NCBI GenBank assembly: GCA_965116885.1 | Contig: OZ220741.1 | Location: forward strand, 774,881 to 838,880 | Length of the DNA: 64,000 nucleotides | Direction of reading: 5' to 3' | Source of the DNA: Candidatus Latescibacterota bacterium | Lineage (GTDB): Bacteria > Latescibacterota > UBA2968 | In this document: one piece after another, positions 850 to 61,561 of the stretch | How positions within the stretch are numbered: position 1 is the first letter of the stretch | Layout of the letters: each line of letters opens with the position of its first letter | The notes under the pieces: generated by a model | The model's database searches: none | Told to the model about the DNA's origin: nothing | The model's input: the letters and a program-made list of their open reading frames with translations, nothing else | Made by a program: the position numbers and the translations under genes

Positions 850-915
850 TCACCAATTCTCAAAAAAGAAAAGCCTCCTTGCTTCGGAGACTTTTCAAAA
901 AATAAATAAAACAGC

Positions 916-989
916 GGGCGACCACAGGGGGTCGCCCCTACAAATCGGATTCACAATATCACCGTAGGGGACGGCCCCTGTGCCGTCCC
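916..989. repeat. Two adjacent GC-rich 26-nt palindromic REP-like elements (GGGCGACCACAGGGGGTCGCCCCTAC and GTAGGGGACGGCCCCTGTGCCGTCCC) between clpP and helicase gene
   Basis: Perfect hairpin-forming palindromes; same family recurs at 52219-52244, 53646-53672, 61455-61480, 61499-61525, 61536-61561. Confidence 0.8.
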
Positions 990-1720: not shown

Positions 1721-4700
1721 TTAATTTTTTTTCTCCAAACGCCTATCCGCCTTCACCAACTTCACCCCCACGCTCTTACCATCCTGACACGTAAACGCCA
1801 CAACCGTCTGATCCGCCTGAACCCTTGCGTCCACCAGATCATACGCACCATCCAAACGCCATATCCCTCGCACCGTCACCTCTACCTTCCGGGGCATACT
1901 CGCCTGATTGACAATTAGCGAACCATCCTGACGATGCGGCGTCTGAATCTCCCAACGCCACCCAAAATCCGGATCAGCAACCGAAAGCAATAACCCATCA
2001 CCCACTTCTCGGGACATTACCAAACTCGGCAAAGACACAGACACAATAGCTCCATCCGTCGGCCTCGCATCCTTATCGAACAGCGCATAACCCGTCGCCT
2101 TCATCCCCCGATGATGCACAATATGAGCCTTGTGATCTCGCTGCCAGACATCATACTCGGGTGCATTGGCAAACGCGCTTACCCTATCCGGCGACCTCTG
2201 AACCAACACGGCATATTCATAGAATCCATCTTGAGGCGCGCTACCGTGATCCAGATACGCCAATTCAAAAGTTCCTGTACCACCGCTATCCCTACCATAA
2301 TTTTTAGAAACTTGCTCCTGACGCTGCACCCTCAGGTCGCCCCCATCTGGAACCACATACCCATTACCCAACGAATCCATCACCCATACCCTCTGCCCCT
2401 TTATCCCCTCAAACATATATGGAATCGCATGCACACGCTCCCCATTCACCCCCGTAGAACGGTCCTCAGAGATAGCCGCCTGAAATAGCGGCGTCACCGT
2501 CGTATGACCACCATCATCATTCTCAATACCAGACCCCAGGCAAACCAGTACATCGTCAAAACAAAACACCGTCTTAACAGCTCGAAAACTCGTATTGAAT
2601 CTCGTATCGTGCAACTTCAAGGAGAACACACCATTTTGCCCTTTCAGATTCACCCCACCCACAAAAGTCTCATCCGAAAAATTGCGATCACGTCCCTCGT
2701 GTTTGAGCTGCTCATGACTCAAGCGGATCACCGTCGTACCCGGCCACATACTCCAATCCCATCCATCTCGCACAATCCCACTCGCCTCCCGGCCAACCGG
2801 ATCGCCACTCGCGTAAACCAGCATCGTCCCATAGCTCAAATAACGACCGAGCGGATTATTCCTCCCCGACGACTCGTAATCCCACACATATTTACCCCAC
2901 CCCTTCATACTCACCATCCAGTCCGCACGCCGATGAATGGACAACGCGCCATAAGGCAGCGTCCAGTGCCCCGAAGGTGGAGTAGCAGATGCATATCCCG
3001 CACTTGCAAAATCCGCCATCATCTGTATCGCACCCGGCGTGTGCAAATACATCAGCCGCACCGATACCCGCTCAAACAAATCTTCTATCAGCAACTGCGA
3101 CTTCGGTTTCCAAAGCTGCATAAACGCGCCCGACAGTTCTGCATCCACCGGAGCATAACTCAAAGCCACATACATATATGCCGGCAAAAGTTTGGTAGCC
3201 ACCGCTGTATTCCGCGGAAAACGACCATTAACAGCCATTGAAATATCATACGTATTCGCCATAATCCTGGACGTCAACAACGCCTGCTTCAAATTATCGC
3301 GCTTATCATCTCCAACCGCAAAAGGCGTATCGTGCAACAAATACACCAGCACAGAAGCCACATGAAAAGCATTTGGCGCATACCCACTCGCGTAAATCCC
3401 CCGATGGTGAAAACCCACAAAATCCGGCTTAATCGTATCCAACCACCCCGGCGCAATAGATAGTGCATTATTGAGCCACGCGATATAGCAACGCATATTC
3501 GCCACCTTCTCGGGCGAATCGTCCATCATCAAAATGCACAACAACCGATACATCGCCACCGAGCGTATAAAATCCGCATTCGCGCCCAGCACCTGCGGAC
3601 CCTCATACAACTCGCCAAACATACTGAACCATTTCAGCGTTGCCAACTCTCGTTCCAGCCGCTCCGTATCTTTCAGAATATCCCGCATCAAATACACCGC
3701 ATGGGCATAGCCAGCAACCCGCAAAAACTCGTGATGCATCGCCCCAACACCACTGCCATCTGCCCAACCCTGATCGTGCAAATAGTCGAAAACATCTATC
3801 ACCCGATCACGCGCCTCCTCATTGCCATTCAACCGATAATCCAACACCAGACGCAACAAAACCCCCTGAAAAACACTCTGAAAAAGAGGTTCATAGGGCG
3901 ACAACTCGGCAAACAGGGGCTTCCCCAAAATGCGATCACCCTCGCGTCGAATCTCGTAATCCGCCAGACTGCGATACCCGCGCCTTATATAGGCTTTAAG
4001 CTCATTGAGCCGAATCCTCACAGGCTCCCGCTCGTCATCCTTCACCCCATCACCCAGCACCCACGCCTCATATCGCCGGGCAATCGTCTCAAAAGCCTGT
4101 CTCTCATCATCAGTTATCTCTGTAGGAAGCGGACCTGGCAATGTGTTTTGACTCCACCGATATTCGCGACTCCTATCTGCCCTATTCGCATTGACAAAGG
4201 GAACCTGAGCATCTGGAGACCGCCTGGGGTGAATCCTCTCCACCAACTCCATCAAATCCAGATAAACAGCACCGCTATTCGATGCCCTAATTTCAAACGC
4301 CGTCACCCGTCCATTTCTCGCCCCCTCATAAGACCTGTTCCGCGCATCATCCCGCAAATGGATCCACATCGCCCGCCAGCCCGTAAAATTCAAGCCAAAC
4401 TCAAACTGATAACGCGGATTATTTGCCGACAACTCAGATTCCGTGCCAAACCGAAATGTCAGCACCTCATCGAGAGCCTCCTCGTTGTACACCCACGCCC
4501 GAAACCCGGTCAGTGCCTTATTGCGTCCCGGCGCGGGATCCGTGAACAAAAGTCGCCCGTTATTCTGCCAGGTCCATTTGAGAGATTGTTGCCCCCCTTT
4601 ATAACGCCTCGCTGAAAGCGACACCTCGCTACCTGCATCCACCTGATAGCTCTCGCCCATAGCCTCAAAATCATAGCGCCAGGACACATCCTGCGCCATC

Positions 4701-4753
4701 GCCGCACTGGCCAAGCCAAGAGCGAAAATAACAATACAGCATTTCAAATTCAT
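1721..4753 (-). CDS. Large secreted protein, probable polysaccharide lyase (heparinase II/III-like / alpha-alpha toroid plus beta-sandwich architecture); function inferred
   Basis: About 1010 aa ORF; start chosen at MNLKCCIVIFALGLASAAMA (cleavable signal peptide) rather than upstream ATG at 4816; size and composition resemble heparinase II/III-type lyases; sits next to sulfatase block. Confidence 0.35.
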   Translation of the reverse strand: MNLKCCIVIFALGLASAAMAQDVSWRYDFEAMGESYQVDAGSEVSLSARRYKGGQQSLKWTWQNNGRLLFTDPAPGRNKALTGFRAWVYNEEALDEVLTFRFGTESELSANNPRYQFEFGLNFTGWRAMWIHLRDDARNRSYEGARNGRVTAFEIRASNSGAVYLDLMELVERIHPRRSPDAQVPFVNANRADRSREYRWSQNTLPGPLPTEITDDERQAFETIARRYEAWVLGDGVKDDEREPVRIRLNELKAYIRRGYRSLADYEIRREGDRILGKPLFAELSPYEPLFQSVFQGVLLRLVLDYRLNGNEEARDRVIDVFDYLHDQGWADGSGVGAMHHEFLRVAGYAHAVYLMRDILKDTERLERELATLKWFSMFGELYEGPQVLGANADFIRSVAMYRLLCILMMDDSPEKVANMRCYIAWLNNALSIAPGWLDTIKPDFVGFHHRGIYASGYAPNAFHVASVLVYLLHDTPFAVGDDKRDNLKQALLTSRIMANTYDISMAVNGRFPRNTAVATKLLPAYMYVALSYAPVDAELSGAFMQLWKPKSQLLIEDLFERVSVRLMYLHTPGAIQMMADFASAGYASATPPSGHWTLPYGALSIHRRADWMVSMKGWGKYVWDYESSGRNNPLGRYLSYGTMLVYASGDPVGREASGIVRDGWDWSMWPGTTVIRLSHEQLKHEGRDRNFSDETFVGGVNLKGQNGVFSLKLHDTRFNTSFRAVKTVFCFDDVLVCLGSGIENDDGGHTTVTPLFQAAISEDRSTGVNGERVHAIPYMFEGIKGQRVWVMDSLGNGYVVPDGGDLRVQRQEQVSKNYGRDSGGTGTFELAYLDHGSAPQDGFYEYAVLVQRSPDRVSAFANAPEYDVWQRDHKAHIVHHRGMKATGYALFDKDARPTDGAIVSVSLPSLVMSREVGDGLLLSVADPDFGWRWEIQTPHRQDGSLIVNQASMPRKVEVTVRGIWRLDGAYDLVDARVQADQTVVAFTCQDGKSVGVKLVKADRRLEKKN

Positions 4754-4827
4754 ACTCAGACCTCTAATACTATTTGGGACTGAATCGCGGCTGAAGCATG
4801 CCGCGATGACAACCAAAATCTTCTGAA

Positions 4828-52218: not shown

Positions 52219-52244
52219 GGGACGGCACAGGGGCCGTCCCCTAC
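52219..52244. repeat. REP-like palindrome GGGACGGCACAGGGGCCGTCCCCTAC preceded by AATAAAAC
   Basis: Identical to copies at 61455 and 61536; reverse complement of copy at 964. Confidence 0.8.
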
Positions 52245-52285: not shown

Positions 52286-53482
52286 ATGTTTGAATCCCTG
52301 ACAATGGCCCCTGCGGATCCCATTATAGGATTGACCGAAGCATTCAAAAACGATCCAAACCCCAACAAAATAAACCTCGGCGTTGGCGTGTACAAAGACG
52401 GCGACGGCAACACACCAATATTTGTCTCTGTAAAAACAGCAGAAGAACGCCTACTCGCACATGAAGACACCAAAAATTATCTCGGCATAGAAGGCGACGA
52501 AGCGTATAACAAAGCCGTCCAGGAACTCCTCTGGGGAACAGAACACGAAATCCTCACCAGTGGACGCGCGGGAACAGCCCAGGCACCGGGCGGCACGGGC
52601 GCGTTGCGCATTGCCGGTGACTTTATTCATCAGCACTATCCCCATGCCCGCGTATGGCTGAGCGATCCCACCTGGGCAAACCACCCCAAAATTTTTGAAT
52701 CTGCCAGCGTACCCACAGCGACCTACCGCTATTACAACCCCGCGTCTTTCGGCCTGGACTTTGATGCACTCATCCAGGACCTCGAACAAATCCCCGCTGG
52801 CGATGTCGTATTACTACACGGATGTTGCCACAACCCCACCGGCGTCGATCCCTCCGCCGAGCAATGGGCACAAATAGCCGATATCATCGCAGATCGCGGC
52901 ATCATCCCACTCGTTGACTTTGCCTATCAGGGCCTGGGCAATGGCCTTGCTGAAGACGCAGTCGGACTCCTATCTCTCAGCCGACCCGGCAGCGAACTCC
53001 TCGTCGCCAGTTCCTTCTCCAAAAACTTTGGCCTCTACCGCGAACGCACAGGCGCATTGACCCTCGTGGGAAAAAACGCCGCCACCGTTGAAAAAGCGAT
53101 GAGCCACATCAAAATCTGCATCCGCACAAATTATTCCAACCCGCCATCGCACGGCGCACAGGCAGTCGCAACAGTCCTCAACGACACCGACCTGCGAGCA
53201 CAATGGGACGGCGAAGTAAAAGCCATGCGCGACCGCATCAACACCATGCGCACCCTATTTGTGGATACCCTCGAAACAAAAGGCGTGCGGCGCGACTTTT
53301 CGTTTATCGCACACCAGAGGGGAATGTTCTCATTCTCCGGGTTGACCCCCGAGCAAGTAGATGCATTGCGCGAGCGATATTCGATATACATCGTCAGTTC
53401 GGGACGCATCAACGTGGCGGGCATGACAAAGGACAATATTGGGCCATTGTGTGAGGCGATCGCGGAAGTGATAGACGAATAG
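52286..53482 (+). CDS. aspC: Aspartate/aromatic-amino-acid aminotransferase (class I, AspC/TyrB family)
   Basis: 399 aa from MFESLTMAPADPIIGLTEAFKNDPNPNKINLGVGVY; SFSKNFGLYRER PLP-lysine motif. Confidence 0.85.
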   Translation: MFESLTMAPADPIIGLTEAFKNDPNPNKINLGVGVYKDGDGNTPIFVSVKTAEERLLAHEDTKNYLGIEGDEAYNKAVQELLWGTEHEILTSGRAGTAQAPGGTGALRIAGDFIHQHYPHARVWLSDPTWANHPKIFESASVPTATYRYYNPASFGLDFDALIQDLEQIPAGDVVLLHGCCHNPTGVDPSAEQWAQIADIIADRGIIPLVDFAYQGLGNGLAEDAVGLLSLSRPGSELLVASSFSKNFGLYRERTGALTLVGKNAATVEKAMSHIKICIRTNYSNPPSHGAQAVATVLNDTDLRAQWDGEVKAMRDRINTMRTLFVDTLETKGVRRDFSFIAHQRGMFSFSGLTPEQVDALRERYSIYIVSSGRINVAGMTKDNIGPLCEAIAEVIDE

Positions 53483-53765
53483 ACGAATAGACGAATAGAC
53501 GGAGCGGTGTACAACTGGCCGCCTCTCAGGCCAGTTCATAGACGAATAGACGAATAGACGAATAGACGAATAGACGAATAGACGAATAGACGAATAGACG
53601 AATAGACGAATAGACGAATAGACGAACCCCGCCCAACCACCCAACGGGCGGGCACAGGGGCACCGCCCCTACATTGATGAACTGTACCGAACCAGTTGTA
53701 CCCCGTTCCGTAGATTCGCTGATGAACTGCTGGCGCAGTTGTACCCCGTTCCGCTGATTCGCCTT
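53474..53765. repeat. Composite repeat: (GACGAATA)x3, hairpin GTACAACTGGCC-N9-GGCCAGTTCATAG, (GACGAATA)x10, GAACCCCGCCCAACCACCCAAC, a REP-like palindrome (53646-53672), then two inverted degenerate copies of the hairpin unit
   Basis: Octamer units start at 53541 every 8 nt to 53620; first units overlap aspC stop codon. Confidence 0.85.
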
Positions 53766-54559: not shown

Positions 54560-57034
54560 TCAATGCGGTATTCCCAACTGATGCATCCGCCGATGAATCG
54601 CTGCACGGGCTTCGACAAAGGGACGTTCCAAATACGCGAGATGGTCCAACTCGCCATGATGGTGCGTCGCCGTGCCAGAGGCGTGTCGGGCAGCGGTTTG
54701 ACGGATGTACGCCAGGTCGCCATCGATAAGCGTCAGCATATACTGGGCGGCTTCCAGATCGAACATCCACCACTCGCCACCGCAGGCGATATAAATCGGC
54801 GACGTATGGGCGAAAATCCCCCGTCCCCAGCCATCGTGATGGGGAACACTGGTATAATTGGGACCGGCACATCGGGCGGCAATCCACGTATGACCATCCA
54901 CCTTCACCTTTCCCTTTAGTTCCAGTCGTCGCGCACCTTTATTATCCTCCGTCGAAGCAACAACGCGCCCTGCCTGAACGATCTCGAGCGTATGAATCGG
55001 GAAAATACTCTCTGCCCACGCCTCGACCTCCACCGTACCGGCTCCCGACAACTGCATCGTATCGCCAACCTGGTGTCCATCTGCGGTAAGATGAATGATG
55101 GGACCACCGCTGTGAAATGTTCGCCCCTGTGACACACTCTTGCACCAATTATCGTAGGTGAATTCCTCGTCGGGCAAATAGGCGTACGTGCGGTAAATAC
55201 CAACGGGCACATCGCTACTCATCTTATCCGTTCCACCAACCAGCGGCAAGCGGTAACCGCAGTTGAGATAGCGGTAGTATTCCAGATGATTGAACGGCGC
55301 ATGACGCAGCATCTCCACGCCATCCACGCGCCCCGTGGCAATCAGCGCCGCAGGCTCCCCATTTGGATTCGGGAGATGCGGGATAATAACCGAGCCACCC
55401 TGCGCGTGACACTGATCCGCCCAATCGCTCATCGTAATCTCCAGCGTACCACCCAGTTCGGACTCACCCGGACCGTCACTGCACCACGGCATCACCGGCT
55501 CCTTGAGACCCCACAGGATGAGATGCCCCAAAAAGTGCTGCCTATTCTCCTGACCCACATAGACGATATTATTCCCATCTTGCGAAATACTCGGCCTGCC
55601 CGTAAAATCCTCCGTATTGGTAAAAAGATTGCCCCACTGCGACGGAAGCAAATTAACGATATTGAGATCCTCCCCCTGGGACTCCGTATGACTTCCCTGT
55701 GTCGAAAGAAAGTGAACGTGCGAATCCCCGCTATACCATCCCCCCTCGTTCATATGAATCCATCGCTTGAGACGCAAAGTCAGTTCGCGTTGACCCGGTT
55801 CGATCTTCACCCGCGTCCGCACCGGCTCATACTCAAATCCCCGGGCGACATCCACAATAACTTCACCGCGCGGCAACCACCCCTGGCAACGACCGTCGAT
55901 GTACGCATAAGTGATTTGTCCGAGCCGAAGATCGCCACCAATATCAACATGCCAGCTATCGAGGTTAGAATTGACCTGATTGTGATGCCCGTAAGGCTGA
56001 TAGGGAATCCCCTCTGGCGAGCGGAAATGGACGCGGCAAGGGATAGGCTTGCCCGTATCGTCATCGAGCACAGTGACGTGAACCCAGTTCCGTCCCCGAT
56101 CCAGGAGTTCCACACGCATGCGCGGGGTCTCGACCACCTTCTTCTCCTCCACATCACCCCACTTGACCTCGCCCACCTTTTCCTCGCCCTGCTTCACCGT
56201 CATCGTAGCCGAAGGCGTGGCAGCGACCTCGACATAAGCCGGACTCGATTTGGGATTCTGCGCCTCTCCCCAACCGGCGAAATCATCATTGACAAAATCA
56301 TCGGCAGACGCTTCGGGCAAGGGATGCACATAAGTTGCCGTCCCCCGATCCACCTCTACGTTGAGATCAAACGGTTTTTCCGCATCTTCGGGATGGGTCA
56401 GAATCAGACGCGCTTCCCGCTTCCCGTGTCGCACAAAAGGATACTCATCCAGATGCGAAAGCGTAACACCCGCGATAATAAAACGCGGACCGCCCGGGAT
56501 AATCTCCAGCGACTCGACTACGCGATCCGGCAAAGGATTCTCCCACGCCCACAGAAAATAACCGCGGGCCGACCCGCGCGACACCTCGGTCTGACGTCGC
56601 CCCATACTCTCCCATTTCCCTTCATAACGCGGCATCAACTGGTCGTTCTGGTCCGAAAATGCGACAAAAGGCGCGCCGCCGCTGGATAAATGTGCAATCT
56701 CAAATCGCTCGCGGATGGGAATGCGGAATTCTTCACCCTCCGCCATCCGAAACAAATAATCCGCCACAGTCTCCCCCAACGGACCGCCCTCCATCAGATC
56801 GGAATCCAACAGGCGATGAGCAATAATCACGCGGCGTGCCGACGCATTGATCGGAATCGTCACGCGACCAGAAGCCTCATCCAGCGCGATAAAACAATTC
56901 GAACCGTCGTCGTTTACCAAAAATGGCAGACCGCGGAAGGATTGTTTGCCTATAGGAGCCTTCGCATTTGCGCCCAGAACTTCCAGTCCCGCACTGCACA
57001 ACGCCGACAAATCGAGAGGTTGATAGTCTGCCAT
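54560..57034 (-). CDS. Large PHP-like/CehA-McbA-type metallohydrolase domain protein
   Basis: 824 aa; GDSHVHFLSTQGSHT His-rich metal-binding motif; no signal peptide obvious. Confidence 0.45.
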   Translation of the reverse strand: MADYQPLDLSALCSAGLEVLGANAKAPIGKQSFRGLPFLVNDDGSNCFIALDEASGRVTIPINASARRVIIAHRLLDSDLMEGGPLGETVADYLFRMAEGEEFRIPIRERFEIAHLSSGGAPFVAFSDQNDQLMPRYEGKWESMGRRQTEVSRGSARGYFLWAWENPLPDRVVESLEIIPGGPRFIIAGVTLSHLDEYPFVRHGKREARLILTHPEDAEKPFDLNVEVDRGTATYVHPLPEASADDFVNDDFAGWGEAQNPKSSPAYVEVAATPSATMTVKQGEEKVGEVKWGDVEEKKVVETPRMRVELLDRGRNWVHVTVLDDDTGKPIPCRVHFRSPEGIPYQPYGHHNQVNSNLDSWHVDIGGDLRLGQITYAYIDGRCQGWLPRGEVIVDVARGFEYEPVRTRVKIEPGQRELTLRLKRWIHMNEGGWYSGDSHVHFLSTQGSHTESQGEDLNIVNLLPSQWGNLFTNTEDFTGRPSISQDGNNIVYVGQENRQHFLGHLILWGLKEPVMPWCSDGPGESELGGTLEITMSDWADQCHAQGGSVIIPHLPNPNGEPAALIATGRVDGVEMLRHAPFNHLEYYRYLNCGYRLPLVGGTDKMSSDVPVGIYRTYAYLPDEEFTYDNWCKSVSQGRTFHSGGPIIHLTADGHQVGDTMQLSGAGTVEVEAWAESIFPIHTLEIVQAGRVVASTEDNKGARRLELKGKVKVDGHTWIAARCAGPNYTSVPHHDGWGRGIFAHTSPIYIACGGEWWMFDLEAAQYMLTLIDGDLAYIRQTAARHASGTATHHHGELDHLAYLERPFVEARAAIHRRMHQLGIPH

Positions 57035-60713: not shown

Positions 60714-61493
60714 TTGAAAATGCTCACAACAATCCTCATCGCCATTGGCCTTGTGCTGGGTATTCCCCTGGCTATTATAGCACTTTTCTTATGCCTGCCA
60801 ATCCGCATACGTGCAACGGGATACTACCGCGAAAACGACTATAGTATATCCGGTTTTGCGCGCGGTTGTGCCGGGCTATGTGGTATTATCTGCGACATCG
60901 ACAAAAAGGGGATACAACTACGCGTCGTTATCGGACGCTGGACCGCGTGGCGACCCCGAGAAAAACCGCCATCATCAGAGCCGACAACAGAATCCGAAAG
61001 AGATACCGCCACTGAACCACAACGGGACAGACCAGAATCATATCCGACAACAAAACCCTCCTATTGGTCGCGTTTGCAAACCCTGCGCGCAAAAACAAAA
61101 CAATACCTGAACTACGCCGCGGATGCGCGTCCTATTCTGACGCGATTTATGAAACGGTTGCTGAAAACAATATCACTTCAACACGCGGAATTGAATCTGG
61201 AGTTAGGAACAGACGATCCCGCCTTCACCGGACGTCTATTTGGATATATCGAAGCGACCAAATGCATCTTTGGCAAACGCATCCACATCTCAATCACCCC
61301 TGATTTTTTGCAACCGCGCTTTGCCGGATCGGGATCCTTGAAACTCTCCATTTATCTTCACCGTTTGATATTCGCCGCACTCGCCCTGATCCTGCGCGGC
61401 GGACTCATGCGCGCAAAAATCTGGTGGACAAAACGCAAAAACAGGCGCAAAGCAGGGACGGCACAGGGGCCGTCCCCTACGATGATATTGTGA
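60714..61493 (+). CDS. DUF2953/YtfI-like membrane protein
   Basis: N-terminal TM, Pro/Glu/Thr-rich linker; upstream of a GerW/YtfJ-like gene as in Bacillus ytfIJ; C-terminal 14 codons are encoded by a REP element. Confidence 0.45.
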   Translation: MKMLTTILIAIGLVLGIPLAIIALFLCLPIRIRATGYYRENDYSISGFARGCAGLCGIICDIDKKGIQLRVVIGRWTAWRPREKPPSSEPTTESERDTATEPQRDRPESYPTTKPSYWSRLQTLRAKTKQYLNYAADARPILTRFMKRLLKTISLQHAELNLELGTDDPAFTGRLFGYIEATKCIFGKRIHISITPDFLQPRFAGSGSLKLSIYLHRLIFAALALILRGGLMRAKIWWTKRKNRRKAGTAQGPSPTMIL

Positions 61494-61561
61494 TTTTTGT
61501 AGGGGCGACCCCCCTGTGGTCGCCCGCTGACTGCTGGGACGGCACAGGGGCCGTCCCCTAC
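61455..61561. repeat. Cluster of three REP-like palindromes (61455-61480, 61499-61525, 61536-61561) in alternating orientation
   Basis: Same 26-nt family as at 916-989 and 52219-52244. Confidence 0.85.

What the first reader, a model, noticed from the sequence alone, without database searches (positions are those of the whole stretch)
916..989. Family of 26-nt GC-rich palindromic REP-like elements, 7 copies at 4 intergenic loci
The near-identical palindromes are GGGACGGCACAGGGGCCGTCCCCTAC and its variant GGGCGACCACAGGGGGTCGCCCCTAC. They lie at 916-941, 964-989, 52219-52244, 53646-53672, 61455-61480, 61499-61525 and 61536-61561. They occur singly, as inverted pairs, or as a triple. All are in intergenic spacers or at the extreme 3' ends of genes, and several are preceded by AATAAA(A)AC. 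This is typical of repetitive extragenic palindromes, which act as terminators, mRNA stabilisers or RAYT transposase targets. This specific consensus is not one I recognise.
Basis: seen in the sequence. Interest (0 to 1): 0.5.

Follow-up and report, generated by a model that had tools for sequence, protein, structure and literature searches.

The report
GTAG-tagged REP hairpins of a RAYT system
The seven GC-rich hairpins are genuine repetitive extragenic palindromes of a type already described, the short DNA repeats handled by a domesticated transposase (RAYT subclass 2.4 / Group 4), here seen in an uncultured, probably Latescibacterota, genome, so the finding is real but ordinary.

Summary
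There are exactly seven copies at the stated coordinates, against about 0 expected by chance. Read on the informative strand, each copy is Y-GTAG-GGG-N4-CCCCTGTG-N4'-CCC. That is an 8-bp stem with a 6-nt loop, carrying the GTAG head that defines RAYT-associated REPs. The three stem variants differ by compensatory changes. The same motif occurs in at least 118 genome stretches from about 20 phyla and in 45 metagenome contigs. The four free stem positions are perfectly complementary in 146 of 162 pattern-retrieved copies. In other genomes the same hairpin flanks RAYT genes or sits in frame inside them. These genes pass Pfam Y1_Tnp and best match NCBIfam REP_Tyr_transpos. Their motifs match the published TnpA_REP subclass 2.4 (Bertels Group 4), whose REPs, in-frame intragenic insertions and scattered taxonomic spread are already described, including a near-identical REP. 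A relative with about 91% DNA identity lacks all five copies at three orthologous spacers, so the copies turn over quickly. No RAYT lies in the window, and the source genome could not be scanned. Only 2 of 7 copies have a T-rich tail, so transcription termination is at most a side role. Verdict: a new member of a known kind, of low to moderate interest.

The parts
916..941 (-). REP copy, CGAC/GTCG stem. It reads GTAGGGGCGACCCCCTGTGGTCGCCC on the - strand and is followed on that strand by GCTGTTTTATTTATTTTTT.
   Evidence: Exact match. CM score 44.9 bits. DNA fold -9.8 kcal/mol, z -4.85. Terminator-like tail.
964..989 (+). REP copy, ACGG/CCGT stem. It is the partner of 916-941, with the two GTAG ends facing each other across a 22-nt spacer.
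   Evidence: CM 42.5 bits. DNA fold -9.8 kcal/mol, z -4.66.
916..989 (.). Composite heterotypic pair (CGAC-type, spacer ..TCACAATATCA.., ACGG-type). It lies in the convergent spacer downstream of clpP (1020-1643, - strand).
   Evidence: It is the same composite unit as 61455-61525, spacer included. It folds as two independent hairpins. ClpP assignment from Pfam.
52219..52244 (-). Single REP copy, ACGG stem, in the divergent spacer between the hpnC-like gene (- strand) and the aminotransferase gene (start 52286, + strand). It has a T-rich tail on the - strand.
53646..53672 (-). Single REP copy, third stem variant (GGGCGG-T-GC / GCCCGCCC, one bulged T), between the aminotransferase gene and the SDR gene.
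   Evidence: CM 34.5 bits. DNA fold -8.2 kcal/mol.
61455..61480 (-). REP copy, ACGG stem. It overlaps the last codons of the DUF2953 ORF (..RDGTGAVPY..), whose stop codon lies in the spacer at 61491-61493.
61499..61525 (+). REP copy, CGAC stem with one extra C in the loop (27 nt). It is the middle unit of the trimer.
   Evidence: CM 35.7 bits.
61536..61561 (-). REP copy, ACGG stem, third unit of the trimer. It lies tail-to-tail with 61499-61525 across a 10-nt spacer and sits upstream of ytfJ.

Best explanation
These are repetitive extragenic palindromes (REPs) of the GTAG-tagged class. They belong to the REP type that goes with RAYT / TnpA_REP subclass 2.4 (Bertels Group 4). Each unit is a single-strand DNA hairpin with four recognisable parts. 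First, a pyrimidine followed by GTAG at the 5' foot. Second, three fixed G-C pairs. Third, four stem pairs that may be any sequence as long as they pair. Fourth, a fixed C-G closing pair around a CCCTGT loop. The likely mechanism is inferred from what is established for E. coli TnpA_REP and IS200/IS608 TnpA. A single-copy HUH/Y1 enzyme elsewhere in the genome would bind the folded hairpin together with the GTAG head when the DNA is single-stranded, for example at the replication fork. It would then cut and rejoin nearby, seeding, deleting or rearranging copies. That would produce single copies, heterotypic inverted pairs and BIME-like clusters in spacers and at gene ends. What is shown: the anatomy, the covariation, the cross-genome occurrence, the physical linkage to RAYT genes in other genomes, and presence/absence differences between close relatives. 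What is inferred: that the source genome encodes such a RAYT, that this enzyme acts on these copies, and the chemistry involved. Individual copies may be co-opted secondarily; the copy at 916-941 looks like a terminator for clpP.
For: Seven copies against about 0 expected. A GTAG head on all 7, with a pyrimidine 5' of it in 7/7 window copies and in 119/137 copies elsewhere. Stable hairpins of -8.2 to -9.8 kcal/mol as ssDNA. The pattern search imposed no pairing on the N4 blocks, yet 146/162 retrieved copies are perfectly complementary there, using more than 15 stem sequences. All 4 free positions covary: 53 double-change cells against 16.3 +/- 3.3 in shuffles, 0/500 shuffles as high, and 95.7% of cells paired against 31-52% in slid controls. 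RAYT-like ORFs lie next to this hairpin in L046, L049, L084 and L122. Three of the four were scanned and pass Pfam Y1_Tnp (26-40 bits, cut-off 23). Two were scanned against NCBIfam and best match REP_Tyr_transpos at 72-79 bits, against 32-37 bits for IS200. The fourth (L049, cut by the locus end) was matched only to the HMM built from the other three. Four further homologues chosen by protein similarity alone all carry the hairpin beside or inside the gene. One of them is on an 8.08 Mb Latescibacterota chromosome that also holds a dispersed copy. The motifs (M)PNH[IFV]H, WQ and YIxxNP match published subclass 2.4, whose REPs have three G-C pairs at the stem foot, and a near-identical REP is listed there. 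Relative L174, at about 90-93% DNA identity, has none of the 5 copies at three orthologous spacers, and more distant relatives have copies with other stems there. Inverted pairs combine different stems in 48/56 cases across loci, as in the window.
Against: No RAYT gene lies in the 64 kb window, and the source genome could not be scanned. Linkage in this organism therefore rests on other genomes. NCBIfam scores fall just under the curated equivalog cut-off of 80 bits. The spacers are too diverged to show a clean empty site or target, so gain cannot be told apart from loss. No activity has ever been shown for a subclass 2.4 enzyme, to my knowledge. Bertels et al. found only modest copy numbers of flanking 16-mers for Group 4 (14 occurrences).
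Confidence: 0.8

Rival explanations
1. The elements exist mainly as RNA-level signals. In this view they are intrinsic terminators or 3' stabilising hairpins selected for gene expression, and any link to a transposase is incidental.
For: Two copies (916-937 and 52219-52240, - strand) are followed by T-rich tails and pass the terminator scan. The first lies directly downstream of clpP. Di Nocera et al. argue that many GTAG REPs are transcribed.
Against: Five of 7 copies have no T tail. The 52219 copy lies in a divergent promoter spacer with no upstream gene on its strand. A canonical terminator (868-896) already follows the clpP copy. The invariant GTAG head and loop, conserved across about 20 phyla, are not needed for termination. 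Stem mismatches show no strand asymmetry (G.T 8 against A.C 6). Rfam has no match. Copies also lie in frame inside RAYT genes.
Confidence: 0.1
2. They are binding sites for a host DNA-architecture or replication protein, as E. coli BIMEs bind gyrase, IHF and Pol I. In this view they are kept for chromosome structure rather than moved by a RAYT.
For: The BIME-like arrangement of alternating orientation, heterotypic partners and a conserved spacer. The conserved head and loop imply recognition by a protein.
Against: There is no direct evidence here. Presence/absence differences between genomes about 91% identical argue against a fixed structural role at these sites. The only protein found repeatedly linked to the motif is a RAYT.
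Confidence: 0.07
3. It is a chance similarity, or a local duplication limited to this region.
For: Only 64 kb of the source genome could be examined.
Against: Shuffles give 0.00-0.03 matches. The copies are spread over 60 kb at four loci with unrelated flanks. The same motif, with paired stems, occurs in at least 118 genome stretches and 45 metagenome contigs.
Confidence: 0.01

Closest known systems
REPs cognate to TnpA_REP subclass 2.4 (Quentin et al. 2018, PMC6006769), equal to RAYT Group 4 (Bertels et al. 2017, PMC5581495)
   Same: A 5' GTAG head directly at the foot of the stem, with three consecutive G-C pairs at the stem bottom. The associated RAYTs carry NH[IFV]H, WQ and YIxNNP-like motifs. 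[quoted passage not shown] The distribution is scattered across many phyla. Their table lists GTAGGGGCGGG-TCCTGTG-CCCGCCC.
   Different: The 8-nt CCCCTGTG block (C-G closing pair plus CCCTGT loop) is not in their tables. Latescibacterota and most of the roughly 20 phyla seen here were not in their sample. In the source genome the RAYT itself has not been observed.
GTAG-tagged REP super-family (Di Nocera et al. 2013, PMC3733652; Nunvar et al. 2010, PMC2817692)
   Same: A GTAG tag, 6-13 bp stems and sub-families with complementary stem changes. Copies occur singly, as inverted dimers 20-100 bp apart and as trimers, lie mostly between genes with some reaching into them, and are associated with RAYT genes as REPtrons.
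   Different: This loop consensus does not appear in their supplementary text. Their 24 families come mostly from Proteobacteria.
E. coli BIMEs (alternating Y and Z REPs) with TnpA_REP/RayT
   Same: Alternating orientation, partners with different stems and a conserved inter-REP spacer. The enzyme is an HUH/Y1 protein that recognises GTAG plus the hairpin, by established knowledge (PMC3479197, PMC8266576).
   Different: E. coli REPs have longer, bulged stems and belong to subclass 2.2 / Group 2. E. coli RayT is only distantly similar to the RAYTs found here (phmmer E 3e-4 to 4e-3). Binding by IHF or gyrase was not tested.
REPINs of Pseudomonas (Bertels and Rainey 2011, PMC3116915)
   Same: Two inverted REPs with a spacer behave as one repeated unit. 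Here the composite unit occurs at two loci 60 kb apart.
   Different: REPIN partners are near-identical and fold into one long hairpin. Here the partners have different stems (18/26 positions complementary) and fold separately. The RAYT group also differs (Groups 2/3 against Group 4).

Membership tests
GTAG-tagged REP | A short (20-40 bp) GC-rich imperfect palindrome that folds into a stem-loop | tested here: met
   26-27 nt, 8-bp stem, 6-7 nt loop, -8.2 to -9.8 kcal/mol as ssDNA, z -2.9 to -4.9. Covariation at all 4 free pairs.
GTAG-tagged REP | An unpaired GT[AG]G tetranucleotide at one foot of the hairpin | tested here: met
   GTAG on 7/7 copies, directly at the foot.
GTAG-tagged REP | Many copies dispersed through the genome | not testable with these tools
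   Only 64 kb of the source genome is available, holding 7 copies at 4 loci.
GTAG-tagged REP | Predominantly extragenic, occurring singly, as inverted dimers or in clusters | tested here: met
   Six of 7 copies are intergenic and one overlaps the last codons of an ORF. The window holds two singles, one pair and one trimer. Across loci there are 147 singles, 50 pairs and 8 larger clusters.
GTAG-tagged REP | A RAYT gene flanked by the same REP (a REPtron) in the same genome | tested here: inconclusive
   Met in other genomes (L046, L049, L084, L122, L166-L168, L171). No RAYT lies in the window, and the rest of the source genome is not available.
REP of TnpA_REP subclass 2.4 / RAYT Group 4 | Three consecutive G-C pairs at the bottom of the stem, directly after GT[AG]G | tested here: met
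   GTAG-GGG...CCC in all 7 copies. Definition taken from PMC6006769.
REP of TnpA_REP subclass 2.4 / RAYT Group 4 | A cognate RAYT with HuH NH[IFV]H, W-motif WQ and Y-motif YIxNNP, often carrying an in-frame REP insertion between HuH and Y | tested here: met
   The RAYTs next to this hairpin read PNH[FIV]H or PDHVH, LWQR, and YIVENP, YIKDNP or YIENNP. REP-encoded peptides occur in 84/120 homologues, starting 10-11 residues after HuH in 44 of the 68 with a forward copy. This was shown in other genomes, not in the source.
REPIN | Two near-identical inverted REPs that together form one long hairpin | tested here: not met
   The partners have different stems (CGAC against ACGG), and the pair folds as two separate hairpins. 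Across loci, 48/56 inverted pairs are heterotypic.
BIME-like cluster | REPs of different types in alternating orientation, separated by conserved spacer motifs | tested here: met
   The trimer at 61455-61561 alternates -,+,- with ACGG, CGAC and ACGG stems. The spacer motif TCACAATATCA is shared with the pair at 916-989. Host-protein binding was not tested.
Intrinsic terminator | A GC-rich hairpin immediately followed by a U-tract, downstream of a gene on the same strand | tested here: not met
   Only 2 of 7 copies have a T-rich tail, and only one of those (916-937, - strand) lies downstream of a gene.
Any Rfam RNA family | A score at or above the family's gathering threshold | tested here: not met
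   No matches in the whole window.

The most novel reading that the evidence does not exclude
A single REP recognition code is shared, together with subclass 2.4 RAYTs, across about 20 bacterial phyla: pyrimidine-GTAG, three G-C pairs, four free pairs and a fixed CCCCTGTG block. It would still be actively gaining or losing copies in Latescibacterota. If so, this REP/RAYT system spreads horizontally, or is very ancient with a frozen recognition code. That contrasts with the lineage-bound, vertically inherited Group 2/3 systems. The natural stem variation would then amount to a ready-made mutational map of what the enzyme reads (head and loop sequence) and what it ignores (middle stem sequence).
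Probability: 0.35. Interest if true: 0.45.

Novelty: new member of a known kind. Interest (0 to 1): 0.25.

Why it matters
The practical value is for annotation. These hairpins explain odd spacers, altered gene 3' ends and spurious Gly/Pro/Ala-rich ORFs in Latescibacterota and many other uncultured lineages. They also extend a documented REP/RAYT type to phyla that the 2013-2018 surveys did not sample. The broad conservation of head and loop, with freely covarying middle stems, gives a concrete and testable prediction of what subclass 2.4 RAYTs recognise. No biochemistry exists for that subclass, to my knowledge. The finding does not reveal a new kind of system.

Tried and rejected
- My first coordinates for the aminotransferase gene were off by one, so two calls failed.
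- Looking up that protein by exact sequence found nothing, so the source assembly is not on record under that product.
- All-vs-all clustering of ORFs in the first 118 loci showed no protein family recurring in more than 11 loci. This is expected if the RAYT is single-copy per genome.
Using phmmer with E. coli RayT, followed by a custom HMM, did find the RAYTs.
- I misremembered the position of E. coli rayT and had to fetch a second region.
- Rfam at gathering thresholds gave no match.
- Aligning filled against empty sites with relative L174 did not give clean insertion boundaries or target duplications, because the spacers have diverged.
- The REPIN reading (one long hairpin from two identical inverted REPs) was rejected because the partners have different stems.
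- The terminator reading was rejected as a general explanation.
- I briefly thought the in-frame REP pair inside RAYT genes might be new. It is described in PMC6006769.
- Plasmid and phage searches with the RAYT found only 5 and 1 distant matches, so no obvious vehicle for horizontal spread emerged.
- The exact 26-mer shared with human-gut contigs need not mean transfer. With four free pairs there are only 256 perfect stems, so identity can arise independently.

Full report
**Observation.**
- Four are exact copies of GGGACGGCACAGGGGCCGTCCCCTAC (964-989, 52219-52244, 61455-61480, 61536-61561).
- Two carry the GGGCGACC/GGTCGCCC stem (916-941, and 61499-61525 with one extra base).
- One (53646-53672) has a third stem with a bulged T.

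Dinucleotide-preserving shuffles give 0.00-0.03 matches. A covariance model built from copies in other genomes, run with filters off, finds exactly these seven at 34.5-44.9 bits. The next best hit scores 8 bits. All seven GTAGGGG heptamers in the window lie within these elements. No other GTAG-tagged hairpin with a perfect stem of 7 bp or more exists in the window.

**Anatomy.** That is an unpaired GTAG head followed by an 8-bp stem and a 6-nt loop.
- As single-stranded DNA the copies fold at -8.2 to -9.8 kcal/mol, well below shuffles.
- The three stem variants differ by compensatory changes (ACGG/CCGT, CGAC/GTCG, CGG(T)G/CCCG).
- The base 5' of GTAG is a pyrimidine in all seven copies.
- The pair at 916-989 and the first two units of the trimer at 61455-61561 are the same composite unit. 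It consists of a CGAC-type copy, a spacer containing TCACAATATCA, and an ACGG-type copy, with the GTAG ends facing each other.
- Because the partners have different stems, the pair folds as two separate hairpins and not as one long one.

**Genomic setting.** Pfam assigns the flanking genes as ClpP, two squalene-synthase-like genes (HpnC/HpnD type), a class I/II aminotransferase, an SDR, DUF2953 and YtfJ.
- The 916-989 pair lies in a convergent spacer downstream of clpP.
- The 52219-52244 copy lies in a divergent spacer.
- The other two loci lie between co-directional genes.
- Copy 61455-61480 supplies most of the last 13 codons of the DUF2953 ORF.
- Only two copies have a T-rich tail on the strand where the hairpin is followed by it. 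Only one of those lies downstream of a gene, and a canonical terminator follows it anyway.

**Beyond the window.**
They come from about 20 phylum-level lineages, including Latescibacterota, Binatia, Cyanobacteria, Chloroflexota, Desulfobacterota, Myxococcota, Planctomycetota, Acidobacteriota, Nitrospirota and Pseudomonadota.
- In 146 of the 162 matches the N4 blocks are perfectly complementary, using more than 15 different stems. Chance would give about 1 in 256.
- On the 32 distinct 26-mers, all four free positions show double compensatory changes: 53 cells against 16.3 +/- 3.3 in shuffles, with 0 of 500 shuffles as high. Pairing is 95.7%, against 31-52% when partners are slid.
- The base before GTAG is a pyrimidine in 119 of 137 copies.
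- Stem mismatches are G.T 8 and A.C 6. Neither strand is favoured, which an RNA-only role would predict.
- The exact ACGG-type 26-mer occurs in 45 metagenome contigs, many from the human gut, that share no other DNA with the window.
- Rfam has no match.

**Link to a transposase.** No RAYT lies in the window.
- Among the fetched loci, phmmer with E. coli RayT and then a custom HMM found RAYT-like ORFs directly beside clusters of this hairpin in L046 (Anabaena), L049 and L084 (delta-proteobacterial MAGs) and L122 (a metagenome contig).
- The L084, L046 and L122 proteins pass Pfam Y1_Tnp. The L046 and L122 proteins best match NCBIfam REP_Tyr_transpos at 72-79 bits, just under the cut-off of 80, against 32-37 bits for IS200. 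The L049 ORF, which is cut by the locus end, was matched only to the custom HMM.
- A profile search found at least 7,995 homologues, many named RayT by JGI.
- I fetched the context of four homologues chosen by protein similarity alone. All four carry the hairpin beside or inside the gene.
- One of these lies on an 8.08 Mb Latescibacterota chromosome that also holds a dispersed copy.
- In 84 of the 120 listed homologues, REP-encoded peptides lie in frame. Of the 68 with a forward copy, 44 start it 10-11 residues after the HUH motif.

**Turnover.** IlvD places the source near Candidatus Latescibacteria: 78% identity to named members and 95-96% to unnamed 4.7 Mb chromosomes. I fetched three syntenic relatives.
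- The closest (L174, about 90-93% DNA identity) has none of the five copies at the three orthologous spacers.
- The two more distant relatives carry copies with other stems and loops in or near the aminotransferase-hpnC spacer.
- The spacers are too diverged to define insertion boundaries.
- L174 carries a related GTAG hairpin with a different loop elsewhere.

**Comparison with what is known.**
- GTAG-tagged REPs with compensatory stem sub-families, dimers and trimers are documented in more than 80 species of 8 phyla (PMC3733652).
- Quentin et al. 2018 define TnpA_REP subclass 2.4 (Bertels Group 4) by the motifs NH[IFV]H, WQ and YIxNNP. They describe its REPs as having three G-C pairs at the stem foot. 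[quoted passage not shown]
- Their table lists GTAGGGGCGGGTCCTGTGCCCGCCC, although not the CCCCTGTG block itself.
- Bertels et al. found Group 4 in 61 species of 17 classes.
- The RAYTs found here match those motifs.
- Across loci, inverted pairs combine different stems in 48 of 56 cases. That resembles E. coli BIMEs more than Pseudomonas REPINs.

**Verdict.** The elements are REPs of a described RAYT-associated type, seen here in a lineage not previously sampled. The mechanism (ssDNA hairpin recognition and cleavage by an HUH/Y1 RAYT) is inferred from E. coli TnpA_REP and IS608 work, and no RAYT has been seen in the source genome. This is a new member of a known kind, with an interest score of about 0.25.

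Noticed in passing
window 53471-53501 and 53538-53626: Two perfect tandem arrays of the 8-mer ATAGACGA (3.9 and 11.1 copies). The first overlaps the stop codon of the aminotransferase gene (53482), and the second ends 20 nt before the REP at 53646. Relative L174, at about 91% identity, has neither.
   Followed up: partly
L084 6702-6775; L169 3265-3359; L171 3268-3350; L172 3265-3353; proteins P0006-P0120: An inverted REP pair lies in frame inside the RAYT gene just after the HUH motif in 84/120 homologues. It encodes VGAxPxxxP...GxPxGxAPT, and median length is 207 aa with the insertion against 173 aa without. This is already described for subclass 2.4 (PMC6006769), and its function is unknown.
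   Followed up: yes
L049 7275-8000: Inside one RAYT ORF the REP-derived insertion has expanded into about seven tandem GQARGPEN peptide repeats.
   Followed up: no
L169 1-6666 (GCA_041322375.1, JBGLNO010000001.1): One RAYT (P0049) has no flanking REPs, only the intragenic pair. Its start and stop overlap neighbouring genes in what looks like a defence island (Methylase_S, DUF3644, SLFN_AlbA_2/HATPase_c_4, Fic).
   Followed up: no
L122 2240-2593; L166 2028-2247: In human-gut metagenome contigs, the RAYT P0009 is followed by same-strand REP copies at a period of about 109 bp. These copies have exactly the window's ACGG stem, although the contigs share no other DNA with the window.
   Followed up: partly
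window 1721-23441: A polysaccharide-utilisation cluster: a PL8 lyase (1721-4816), an MFS transporter and at least four sulfatases. This fits a Latescibacterota-like glycosaminoglycan degrader.
   Followed up: no
window 868-896: A canonical hairpin with T-runs on both sides (AAAAGCCTCC..GGAGACTTTTC), which looks like a bidirectional terminator, sits about 20 nt from the REP pair.
   Followed up: no
L174 1417-1465: The closest relative carries a different GTAG-tagged hairpin (GTAG-GGGGCGGG-ttttaaa-CCCGCCCC) next to a partial copy. REP families therefore differ even between genomes about 91% identical.
   Followed up: no
window 54560-57034: An 824-aa ORF with no Pfam match is conserved in relative L174 (11723-14197) but absent from L175 and L176 at that position.
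   Followed up: no
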